A stretch of 37,260 nucleotides of DNA, taken from IMG/VR virus record IMGVR_UViG_3300012949_000009, positions 1 through 37,260 of that record. One strand, written 5' to 3'. Positions 1,865 to 2,270 of this stretch are shown piece by piece (position 1 is the first letter of the stretch; each line of letters starts with the position of its first letter). A program made the translations under genes and the position numbers. The DNA is from a virus. Below the pieces are notes generated by a model, which saw only the letters and a program-made list of their open reading frames with translations, searched no databases and had not been told where the DNA came from.

Positions 1865-1895
1865 AACAAAAAAGAACTTTTTATGGTTCTTTTAA
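1865..1895. terminator. Bidirectional intrinsic terminator.
   Basis: AAAGAAC (1871-1877) pairs with GTTCTTT (1886-1892). On the minus strand the stem is followed by TTTTTTGTTGT. Confidence 0.6.
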
Positions 1896-2270
1896 TTTTA
1901 GACCTAGCAAAATAGATATGCACAGTTGCAACTGTATGACTTTTTAACCTTGTTAGGTGTTACATATCTATTTCACTATTTTTACGGAATATTACCTATT
2001 CCTATGAGAGATTTAATGATACCATAGGATGACGCACGCACCGCTATTGTTTTACTGTGTTTCCGGACCGGGCTTTGAGATACCCACACAAACCCTCTAG
2101 GCTCCCGTTAAGGACTTACGACTTTTCATTCCCACTAAAGAATTACTTATTAGATCTCTCATAGCAAGAGGTTTATTCTTGCTTGAAACGAACTCCGCGT
2201 TCCCAAAACCAAAAAGGGGAAATGTGTGAGAGAATTACATCTATTTATAATTCTCTACGATACCATTATA
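1893..2270 (-). ncRNA. Candidate structured non-coding RNA of unknown family. The strand assignment is tentative.
   Basis: No ORF. By hand count, 2031-2130 is about 50% GC against about 20-25% in the flanks. There are several nested helices (see findings). The minus strand has a canonical terminator at the 3' end (1865-1895). Confidence 0.5.

What the first reader, a model, noticed from the sequence alone, without database searches (positions are those of the whole stretch)
1893..2270. GC-rich, ORF-free, highly structured island of about 370 nt: candidate novel phage ncRNA
There is no ORF between the late-regulator gene and the bidirectional terminator. GC rises to about 50% (hand count, 2031-2130) in a genome that is otherwise about 20-28% GC.

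Several helices can be read directly:
- 1910-1920 pairs with 1963-1973 (11 bp), enclosing the ACAGTTG/CAACTGT hairpin at 1922-1935.
- 1986-1991 pairs with 1997-2002.
- 2001-2006 pairs with 2023-2028.
- A long-range 11-bp helix, 2002-2012 with 2154-2164, competes with the previous one.
- 2163-2169 pairs with 2177-2183.
- 2229-2237 pairs with 2248-2256.
- CACACA at 2085-2090 can pair with TGTGTG at 2223-2228.

The minus strand ends in a canonical terminator (1865-1895), so I favour a minus-strand RNA. It would be either a separate transcript or a structured 3' UTR of the early operon. I do not recognise tRNA, tmRNA, SRP, RNase P or hammerhead cores. The mutually exclusive helices suggest a switch or a processing element. 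The position, directly after a putative late regulator and ending in a terminator, recalls the lambda Q / 6S RNA / tR' arrangement.
Basis: partly seen in the sequence, partly recalled or inferred. Interest (0 to 1): 0.75.

Follow-up and report, generated by a model that had tools for sequence, protein, structure and literature searches.

The report
Structured leader RNA of phage late operon
The island is most likely the untranslated, hairpin-rich start of this phage's late transcript, running from a regulator-controlled promoter to a weak terminator; its GC-rich middle is an optional 151-base block of unknown function that related phages gain, lose or swap.

Summary
Positions 1893-2270 have no conserved ORF. 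Positions 2031-2130 are 50% GC in a 27.5% GC circular phage genome.

The island has two parts.

1. A minus-strand transcription unit, conserved in all 13 distinct related loci:
- two perfect 10-bp direct repeats at the 3' end of a 148-aa gene that resembles late transcriptional regulators (Ltr) of Gram-positive phages;
- a TATAAT box exactly 18 bp after the start of the second repeat;
- a 5' hairpin beginning 5-7 nt after that box, with seven different stem sequences;
- an ORF-free leader of 157-728 nt;
- an AT-rich terminator.
In seven of eight relatives, a late gene or tRNA starts 5-25 nt after the terminator.

2. A 151-nt GC-rich block (2007-2157) on the tip of hairpin P5. It is absent from a phage whose regulator gene is 99.8% identical. 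It is 97-98% identical in phages whose genes are 74-84% identical. On its own it folds no better than shuffled sequence. I found it nowhere else.

No Rfam family, tRNA or tmRNA matches. The best reading is a late-operon leader/attenuator, comparable to lambda PR'-6S-tR'. There is no expression data. The function of the GC block is unresolved.

The parts
2266..2712 (-). 148-aa gene for an Ltr-like late regulator (coiled-coil N-terminus, C-terminal helix-turn-helix)
   Evidence: ORF. No Pfam or PHROG hit at threshold. Weak DUF1492 matches, best E = 6.7e-4, in 4 of 22 family members. AlphaFold model has pLDDT 81. Best viral fold matches are DUF1492 and sigma-70 region 4 phage proteins of the same size (E 0.009-0.06, probability 0.97-1.0). 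The family has 458 representative clusters.
2279..2298 (-). Two perfect 10-bp tandem direct repeats (ATCGGAAAAA x2), the putative regulator-binding site, covering about -40 to -21
   Evidence: Unique in the genome (0.03 expected by chance). A perfect repeat with a 10-bp period is present in all 13 distinct loci in five sequence variants. It lies inside or outside the coding region depending on the locus.
2265..2270 (-). -10 box TATAAT; the regulator's stop codon TAA (2266-2268) lies inside it
   Evidence: In 13 of 13 loci a TATAAT-like hexamer starts exactly 18 bp after the start of the second repeat, counting AATAAT as the -10 box in L093 (the script's TAATAA gave 17). It is also conserved where the ORF ends earlier (L008, L017, L009).
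2229..2256 (-). P1, the 5'-terminal hairpin of the predicted RNA (predicted start about 2258)
   Evidence: 9-bp stem. A hairpin begins 5-7 nt after the -10 box in all 13 loci, with seven different stem sequences.
2204..2228 (-). C- and U-rich linker (CACACAUUUCCCCUUUUUGGUUUUG)
   Evidence: A CCCC(U)n motif recurs after P1 in most relatives, including L009, L015 and L093. Its role is unknown.
2185..2203 (-). P3 hairpin GGAACG / CGUUUC
   Evidence: The pair changes from G-U to A-U between variants, which is compatible only with minus-sense RNA.
2163..2183 (-). P4 hairpin AGCAAG / CUUGCU with a variable loop
   Evidence: The stem is invariant and the loop has several variants (6-9 nt across loci). 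It is kept in relatives whose regulator protein is 55% identical to the window's (L018, L094).
2002..2164 (-). P5 long hairpin (base CUAUGAG / CUCAUAG, extended to about 16 bp) carrying the variable apical region
   Evidence: 11 of 11 complementary. There is a compensatory G-C to U-A change in L005, and G-U pairs in the short variant.
2007..2157 (-). 151-nt variable block containing the GC-rich core (the actual 'island')
   Evidence: It is replaced by 23 nt in L001 (adjacent gene 99.8% identical), L006, L007, L013 and L014. L005 has 65 unrelated nt there. It is 96.7-98% identical in L008 and L017, whose regulator genes are 74-84% identical to the window's and to each other. The core alone gives z = +1.1 / +0.5. 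It was not found in IMG/VR, GTDB genomes, the JGI metagenome collection, GenBank phages or plasmids.
1986..2002 (-). P6 hairpin GGAAUA / UAUUCC
   Evidence: 6 of 6 complementary. The stem is conserved; differences fall in or beside the loop.
1910..1973 (-). P7, an optional 3' module: an 11-bp outer helix enclosing two small hairpins, including the ACAGTTGCAACTGT palindrome
   Evidence: Present in the window, L001 and L006. Absent in L008, L013 and L017. Replaced by tRNA genes in L005 and L007.
1862..1895 (-). T1, the leader terminator (AAAAGAAC-loop-GUUCUUUU plus a U tract)
   Evidence: -5.8 kcal/mol, z = -2.9. Conserved in relatives with G-U variants. In seven of eight relatives the next same-strand gene or tRNA starts 5-25 nt after the U tract.
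1836..1861 (.). T2, a bidirectional terminator shared with the convergent plus-strand three-gene cassette (759-1837)
   Evidence: -7.7 kcal/mol (minus) and -8.3 kcal/mol (plus).

Best explanation
The island is the untranslated first ~395 nt of the phage's late transcription unit on the minus strand. The proposed steps are below.

(1) Inferred. The 148-aa Ltr-like protein binds the two 10-bp direct repeats (2298-2279, about -40 to -21). There it replaces or assists -35 recognition at the TATAAT box (2270-2265).

(2) Inferred from a conserved architecture. Transcription starts near 2258. The RNA immediately forms the 5' hairpin P1, then hairpins P3 to P7.

(3) The sequence shows this; function is inferred. 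The RNA reaches a weak A/U-rich terminator (T1, then T2). Termination would give a ~395-nt RNA. Read-through carries polymerase into the late genes.

So the leader plus terminator acts as an attenuator or checkpoint, comparable to lambda PR'-6S-tR'. Read-through may be simple leakiness or may need the regulator or the RNA itself.

The 151-nt GC-rich block is one variant of a hypervariable insert on the tip of hairpin P5. It is exchanged by recombination among related phages and is dispensable for the basic unit. Its own function is unknown.
For: - Repeat, -10 box and 5' hairpin keep exact spacing in 13 of 13 loci, with regulator identity down to 41%.
- The repeat pair is unique in the genome.
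- Repeats at the 3' end of late-regulator genes are the documented binding sites of the regulator, upstream of a single late promoter (PMC3753634; PMC13123087).
- The regulator's fold resembles the DUF1492 and sigma-70 region 4 phage regulators.
- G-U and mismatch counts favour the minus strand. There is a compensatory pair in P5 and wholesale covariation in P1.
- tRNA genes sit inside the same unit in L005 and L007, and 5 nt after the terminator in L094.
- The next gene starts 5-25 nt after the U tract in seven of eight relatives. That leaves no room for another promoter.
- More distant relatives carry 620-725-nt ORF-free leaders in the same position, with z = -5.5 and -8.3.
- The block is polymorphic between near-identical phages.
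Against: - There is no transcript data of any kind. The promoter, start site and termination are all predictions.
- The regulator belongs to no curated Ltr family at threshold.
- In this phage the terminator is followed by 1.1 kb of convergent genes. Read-through would have to run antisense across them before reaching HNH, RecU and the terminase genes about 4.9 kb away.
- Only about nine close sequence variants exist, so covariation outside P1 and P5 is thin.
- The high conservation of the GC block could mean it is the functional part, which this model leaves unexplained.
Confidence: 0.55

Rival explanations
1. It is a stand-alone late non-coding RNA whose product is the point. The promoter-to-terminator unit is an RNA expression cassette. 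Its cargo (the GC block here; tRNAs or 600-725-nt RNAs in relatives) is released or acts in trans. It might work as a decoy, a sponge or an assembly, in the manner of ROOL, GOLLD or the T4 stable RNAs.
For: - tRNAs occupy the same slot in L005 and L007.
- Relatives carry very large, strongly structured RNAs there.
- The GC block is 97-98% conserved across phages whose flanking genes are 74-84% identical.
- The long P5 stem could be an RNase III site (inference).
- ROOL and GOLLD sit near phage tRNA islands, and GOLLD rises during lysis (PMC12286853).
Against: - The GC core is not detectably structured.
- It is dispensable in a near-identical phage.
- No family matches.
- The downstream genes' dependence on read-through shows the unit is not only an RNA gene.
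Confidence: 0.22
2. The GC-rich block is a selfish or accidental DNA insertion, such as a remnant of a small mobile element or an illegitimate-recombination product. It landed in a tolerant hairpin tip and has no function of its own.
For: - It is present or absent between phages with 99.8% identical neighbouring genes, and near-identical in divergent backgrounds.
- It is bounded by inverted sequence (AGAGATYTAAT.. / ..ATTAWATCTCT).
- Its composition is foreign to the genome.
- It has no fold signal.
- The tip of P5 carries four different inserts in relatives.
Against: - It is single-copy in the genome.
- It is absent from every other context in every collection searched.
- There is no target-site duplication.
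- The inverted ends are equally well explained as an extension of the P5 RNA stem.
Confidence: 0.15
3. It is simply the 3' untranslated region of the early/regulator mRNA, with no promoter of its own. The hairpins stabilise the 3' end.
For: The island follows the last early gene and ends in a terminator. The simple sigma-70 scan did not call this promoter because there is no -35 box.
Against: The strictly spaced repeat/-10/hairpin module is conserved regardless of where the ORF stops. Late genes directly abut the terminator in relatives.
Confidence: 0.06
4. It is a DNA-level site (packaging site, replication origin or attachment site), or a captured fragment of a host gene.
For: It has inverted and direct repeats and an odd composition.
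Against: - G-U-dependent helices point to RNA.
- The integrase is a serine recombinase 11 kb away.
- The HNH, small terminase and large terminase genes, near which a cohesive-end site would be expected, are about 4.9 kb away.
- No frame reads like a protein fragment.
- No match in GTDB genomes for an 18-mer from the core.
Confidence: 0.02

Closest known systems
Ltr-type late promoters of Gram-positive temperate phages (RinA, ArpU, LtrA/sigma-70 region 4, LtrB/DUF1492, LtrC)
   Same: A small regulator gene lies at the end of the replication module. Direct repeats sit at or just after its 3' end. There is a single late promoter, and a terminator lies in the regulator-terminase interval (PMC3753634, PMC3152322, PMC13123087). 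The regulator's fold resembles DUF1492 and sigma-70 region 4 phage proteins.
   Different: The protein passes no curated family threshold. There are only two repeats of 10 bp, overlapping the -35 position. The terminator lies after the promoter and a 157-728-nt structured leader, not before it. No long structured leader has been described for Ltr systems in the papers I read.
Lambda Q / PR' / 6S RNA / tR'
   Same: The regulator gene is directly followed by the late promoter, which carries the regulator's site within it. A short non-coding transcript ends at a terminator that must be passed to express the late genes.
   Different: There is no homology to Q proteins. The leader is longer, hairpin-rich and hypervariable. 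Antitermination is purely hypothetical here, and the terminator is weak enough to be merely leaky.
ROOL and GOLLD large phage RNAs; T4 stable RNAs in the tRNA cluster (the T4 comparison is from my own knowledge)
   Same: They are phage-encoded and ORF-free, of unknown function, next to or interleaved with phage tRNA genes. GOLLD expression rises during lysis (PMC12286853).
   Different: There is no Rfam match at gathering score or at E <= 5-10. The window's RNA is a string of simple hairpins, not an ornate multi-pseudoknot fold. The family is tiny.
HK022 put RNA and other RNA-based processive antitermination elements (own knowledge)
   Same: Conserved adjacent stem-loops (P3, P4) lie just downstream of a phage promoter and upstream of terminators.
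   Different: There is no sequence or structural homology tested or evident. P3 is not conserved in the more distant relatives.

Membership tests
Any Rfam 15 family (including ROOL, GOLLD, HEARO, riboswitches, ribozymes, 6S, SRP, RNase P) | Covariance-model score at or above the family's gathering threshold | tested here: not met
   There were 0 matches in the whole window. At E <= 10 on 1750-2400 there were only five chance-level hits of 16-23 bits against thresholds of 50-100. The relatives' leaders were also negative.
tRNA / tmRNA | Cloverleaf or tmRNA architecture detected by ARAGORN | tested here: not met
   There were 0 genes at default settings. Only junk calls appeared at the 50-70% score settings.
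Ltr-type late promoter | [quoted passage not shown] | tested here: met
   A perfect 2 x 10 bp repeat starts 18 bp before the -10 box in 13 of 13 loci. It is unique in the genome.
Ltr-type late promoter | Regulator belongs to the RinA, ArpU, Sigma70_r4, DUF1492 or LtrC families | tested here: inconclusive
   DUF1492 matches are below threshold (E 6.7e-4 to 0.13), and distant members have no Pfam hit. The fold search top hits are viral DUF1492 and sigma-70 region 4 proteins (E 0.009-0.06, probability up to 1.0). PDB hits to sigma region 4 are weak.
Ltr-type late promoter | Regulator-dependent activation of late transcription | not testable with these tools
   This needs reporter fusions or RNA-seq.
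Lambda Q-type antitermination module | Q-family protein | tested here: not met
   There is no Pfam, NCBIfam or PHROG hit to Q families. The fold resembles sigma region 4 and DUF1492 instead.
Lambda Q-type antitermination module | Promoter, then a short non-coding transcript, then a terminator, then late genes that depend on read-through | tested here: met
   This is met at the sequence level only. The predicted start is ~2258 and T1 is at 1862-1895. In relatives the next gene or tRNA starts 5-25 nt after the U tract.
Lambda Q-type antitermination module | Promoter-proximal pause and terminator-resistant elongation | not testable with these tools
   This needs in vitro transcription.
Riboswitch / RNA switch | A conserved ligand-binding fold plus mutually exclusive terminator and antiterminator helices | tested here: not met
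   No aptamer family matches. The competing helix (2001-2006/2023-2028) exists only in the GC-block variant. No sequence able to sequester the terminator arm is conserved. The GC core gives z > 0.
Miniature mobile element (for the 151-nt block) | Presence/absence polymorphism | tested here: met
   It is absent in L001 (adjacent gene 99.8% identical) and present at 97-98% identity in divergent L008 and L017.
Miniature mobile element (for the 151-nt block) | Multiple copies or other insertion contexts; target-site duplication | tested here: not met
   It is single-copy in the window. Only chance 15-18-mer matches were found in IMG/VR, GTDB genomes and the JGI metagenome collection. No duplication is seen at the boundaries.

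The most novel reading that the evidence does not exclude
This uncharacterised regulator family (458 clusters, no Pfam model) may define a Gram-positive counterpart of the lambda Q system. In that reading, a promoter-bound sigma-region-4-like protein, or the 5' leader RNA itself, makes polymerase pass the leader terminator. The leader slot would also be a dedicated expression site for a previously unclassified, hypervariable set of structured phage RNAs (157-728 nt, interleaved with tRNAs). The conserved 151-nt GC block would be one such trans-acting cargo.
Probability: 0.15. Interest if true: 0.75.

Novelty: new variant of a known kind. Interest (0 to 1): 0.5.

Why it matters
How Gram-positive phage late regulators of the Ltr type actually switch on late genes is still unclear. 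The RinA study noted that binding sites lie more than 155 bp from the mapped start and that a terminator lies in between (PMC3152322).

This locus has a very regular arrangement: repeats, -10 box, 5' hairpin, long leader, terminator, late genes. That makes a clear, testable alternative. Transcription may start right after the regulator gene and have to pass a leader terminator.

The same slot also holds tRNAs and very large structured RNAs in relatives. It may therefore be a useful place to look for new phage non-coding RNAs.

If the leader is just a leaky attenuator, the finding is a tidy but ordinary piece of phage gene organisation.

Tried and rejected
- **Known RNA families.** Rfam at gathering score and at permissive E-values on the window and on relatives, and ARAGORN at default and relaxed settings, found nothing.
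- **Homologues of the island or block.** GenBank phages and plasmids gave no match by blastn. IMG/VR exact patterns gave none, or only chance 15-mers. An 18-mer in GTDB genomes and an 18-mer in JGI metagenomes gave only chance hits in GC-rich genomes. The metagenome collection evidently does not hold the JGI contigs that carry the block, so that negative is weak.
- **Protein route into IMG/VR.** No relatives were found. A repeat-based pattern found only the P0044-type locus.
- **Block as a coding fragment.** No convincing open frame exists. The 35-aa ORFs run across conserved hairpins and have poor ribosome-binding-site spacing.
- **Block as a degenerate tRNA, or related to the other leaders.** Local alignments were no better than shuffles.
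- **Block as attP or cos.** The serine integrase is 11 kb away and the packaging genes about 4.9 kb away.
- **Structure of the block from its four substitutions.** All are neutral or disruptive for the minimum-free-energy fold. Two of them make a direct repeat, UUAGCGGGA x2, more exact; its meaning is unknown.
- **Automated pair counts.** MAFFT misaligned the short and long P5 variants, so pair counts were made by hand-defined arms.
- **Literature.** I found no paper describing antitermination or a long leader for Ltr-type late operons.

Full report
**Setting.** The window is a circular assembly with a 123-nt terminal overlap. It is a 27.5% GC temperate siphovirus-type phage. It has a large serine recombinase at 13462-14835. 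Replication and recombination genes (SSB, NinB) lie on the minus strand. The HNH, small-terminase and large-terminase genes lie at 35244-32516. The island follows the 148-aa ORF 2266-2712 (minus strand). It is bounded on the other side by a convergent plus-strand three-gene cassette (759-1837), which is driven by a perfect TTGACA-17-TATAAT promoter.

**Checking the observation.**
- GC of 2031-2130 is 0.50, and the richest 100-nt window of the whole genome starts at 2021.
- No ORF exceeds 50 aa.
- The 411-nt stretch folds better than shuffles on both strands, z = -5.05 and -5.81.
- The GC-rich core alone (2012-2150) does not: z = +1.12 and +0.53. The structure signal belongs to the AT-rich hairpins that flank the core.
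- No Rfam family matches at gathering score, or meaningfully at E <= 10. ARAGORN finds nothing.

**Relatives.** DNA searches in GenBank phages, plasmids, IMG/VR, GTDB genomes and the JGI metagenome collection found no copy of the island or its core. Homologues of the 148-aa protein gave 61 protein clusters and contigs L001-L018 and L093-L102. Every one has an ORF-free gap downstream of the gene: 157-728 nt from the stop codon to the end of the U tract where the terminator is on the contig.

**A conserved transcription-start module.** All 13 distinct loci, with regulator identity down to 41%, share the same arrangement:
- There is a perfect tandem direct repeat with a 10-bp period. Five variants occur: ATCGGAAAAA, ATGACACAAA, ATCGGACAAA, ATGGCACAAA and ATAGGACAAA.
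- The second unit begins exactly 18 bp before a TATAAT-like hexamer.
- A hairpin begins 5-7 nt after that hexamer, with seven different stem sequences.

The repeats lie inside the C-terminal codons in some loci and wholly after the stop codon in others (L009). They are therefore a DNA signal, not a coding constraint. In the window the repeat pair (2279-2298) is unique in the genome. The stop codon sits inside the -10 box (2265-2270).

This matches the published pattern for Ltr late regulators of Gram-positive phages. [quoted passage not shown]

The protein itself has no curated family. It gives sub-threshold DUF1492 hits. Its AlphaFold model (pLDDT 81) matches viral DUF1492 and sigma-70 region 4 proteins of the same size best. 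It also weakly matches sigma region 4 in the PDB. The family is sizeable, with 458 representative clusters.

**The RNA and its strand.** From a predicted start near 2258 the minus-strand RNA forms these elements (coordinates checked):

| Element | Window coordinates |
|---|---|
| P1 hairpin | 2229-2256 |
| C/U-rich linker | 2204-2228 |
| P3 hairpin | 2185-2203 |
| P4 hairpin | 2163-2183 |
| P5 long hairpin | 2002-2164 |
| P6 hairpin | 1986-2002 |
| P7 module | 1910-1973 |
| T1 terminator | 1862-1895 |
| T2 terminator | 1836-1861 |

Across variants the helices contain 10 G-U pairs and 3 mismatches read on this strand, against 2 G-U pairs and 11 mismatches on the other. The P5 base has a compensatory G-C to U-A change in L005. 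The block-free L013 leader folds to -53 kcal/mol (z = -4.7) on this strand and -37 kcal/mol (z = -3.4) on the other. This favours a minus-sense RNA over plus-sense RNA or a DNA cruciform.

**Modularity.** The leader is a mosaic of variants:
- P1/linker has two variants.
- The P4 loop has four.
- The tip of P5 has four: a 23-nt loop, the 151-nt GC block, a 65-nt insert in L005, and about 45 nt in L018.
- The 3' module has three: P7, nothing, or tRNA-Met and tRNA-Trp genes.

The GC block (2007-2157) is absent from L001, whose regulator gene is 99.8% identical to the window's. It is 96.7-98% identical in L008 and L017, whose regulator genes are 74-84% identical to the window's and to each other. 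It resembles nothing else in the window, in the other leaders, or in any collection searched. Its four substitutions give no support for any fold.

L017 has the block but not CACACA. The competing helix lies inside the block.

**What the terminator is for.** T1 is weak (-5.8 kcal/mol) but conserved with G-U variants. In seven of eight relatives where the same strand continues, the next gene or tRNA starts only 5-25 nt after the U tract; in L095 the gap is 59 nt. Those genes have no room for a promoter of their own. They must be transcribed by read-through. The leader plus terminator therefore sits inside the late operon as an attenuator.

The arrangement parallels lambda PR'-6S-tR'. Whether read-through is leakiness, regulator-dependent antitermination or RNA-mediated cannot be decided here. 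The RinA study noted unexplained distance and a terminator between the regulator's binding site and the mapped terS 5' end (PMC3152322). So the question is open for Ltr systems generally. In this phage a three-gene cassette in the opposite orientation has been inserted after T1. Read-through would run antisense across it. This is the main oddity for the model.

**Verdict.** The island is real and non-coding, and is best read on the minus strand. It is not one GC-rich structured RNA. It is a late-promoter leader/attenuator (confidence about 0.55) that carries an optional, recombining 151-nt GC-rich block of unknown function.

The rivals are:
- a stand-alone cargo RNA (0.22);
- a functionless insertion, for the block (0.15);
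- a plain 3' UTR (0.06);
- a DNA site or host fragment (0.02).

Nothing was tested experimentally. The close family comprises about nine sequence variants, all from metagenome contigs; at least one sample is labelled a biogas fermenter metagenome. The only host hint is a Gallicola metagenome-assembled genome.

Noticed in passing
L095:2466-3190 (= L104, IMGVR_UViG_3300032167_003108); L009:5462-6085; L015:~650-1291: More distant relatives of the regulator carry much longer ORF-free, strongly structured leaders in the same slot, right before the packaging genes. They are about 725 nt (z = -8.3), about 620 nt (z = -5.5) and about 660 nt. None has an Rfam match, and none resembles the window's island.
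   Followed up: partly
window 2266-2712 (-) and proteins P0001-P0206: The 148-aa regulator belongs to an uncharacterised family of about 140-150-aa proteins: 458 clusters at E <= 1e-3 and 300 at E <= 1e-10. It has no Pfam, NCBIfam or PHROG model and no homologue in 50,697 GenBank phages. By fold it is closest to phage DUF1492 and sigma-70 region 4 regulators.
   Followed up: partly
window 697-1861 (+): A three-gene plus-strand cassette (759-1148, 1159-1410, 1427-1837) lies convergent to the leader. It has a perfect extended sigma-70 promoter (TTGACA-17-TG-TATAAT, 697-725) and its own terminator. It looks like a lysogen-expressed moron. The last gene matches phrog_2329 and, by eye (own reading, not tested), has an AbrB/SpoVT-like N-terminus. 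It is absent from relatives L013, L014 and L017.
   Followed up: partly
window 6766-7581 (-): This is the second GC-rich patch of the genome (39-41% GC over about 800 nt). It is a 271-aa ORF with no Pfam match.
   Followed up: no
L005:1669-1750: ARAGORN calls an 82-nt tRNA with a four-base anticodon (acac), upstream of tRNA-Met and tRNA-Trp inside the leader unit. Rfam also scores it as a tRNA (49.8 bits). It could be a quadruplet-decoding or otherwise unusual phage tRNA.
   Followed up: no
L006 and L007 (same run, ERR2019980): Two assemblies from one sample share the regulator gene and the 5' leader but differ in the 3' module: P7 in one, tRNA-Trp in the other. L007 keeps only the last 13 nt of tRNA-Met fused to P6. 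This is a recombination scar and shows how the modules are swapped.
   Followed up: partly
window 1-123 and 37138-37260: There is an exact 123-nt terminal overlap, so the window is a complete circular assembly of about 37,137 bp.
   Followed up: yes
window 2107-2143 (-): Inside the GC block a 9-nt motif occurs twice, 27 nt apart: UUAGUGGGA and UUAACGGGA. In L008 and L017 two substitutions make both copies identical (UUAGCGGGA). There are also four GGG runs within about 60 nt. This could be a protein-binding repeat. I could not explain it.
   Followed up: no
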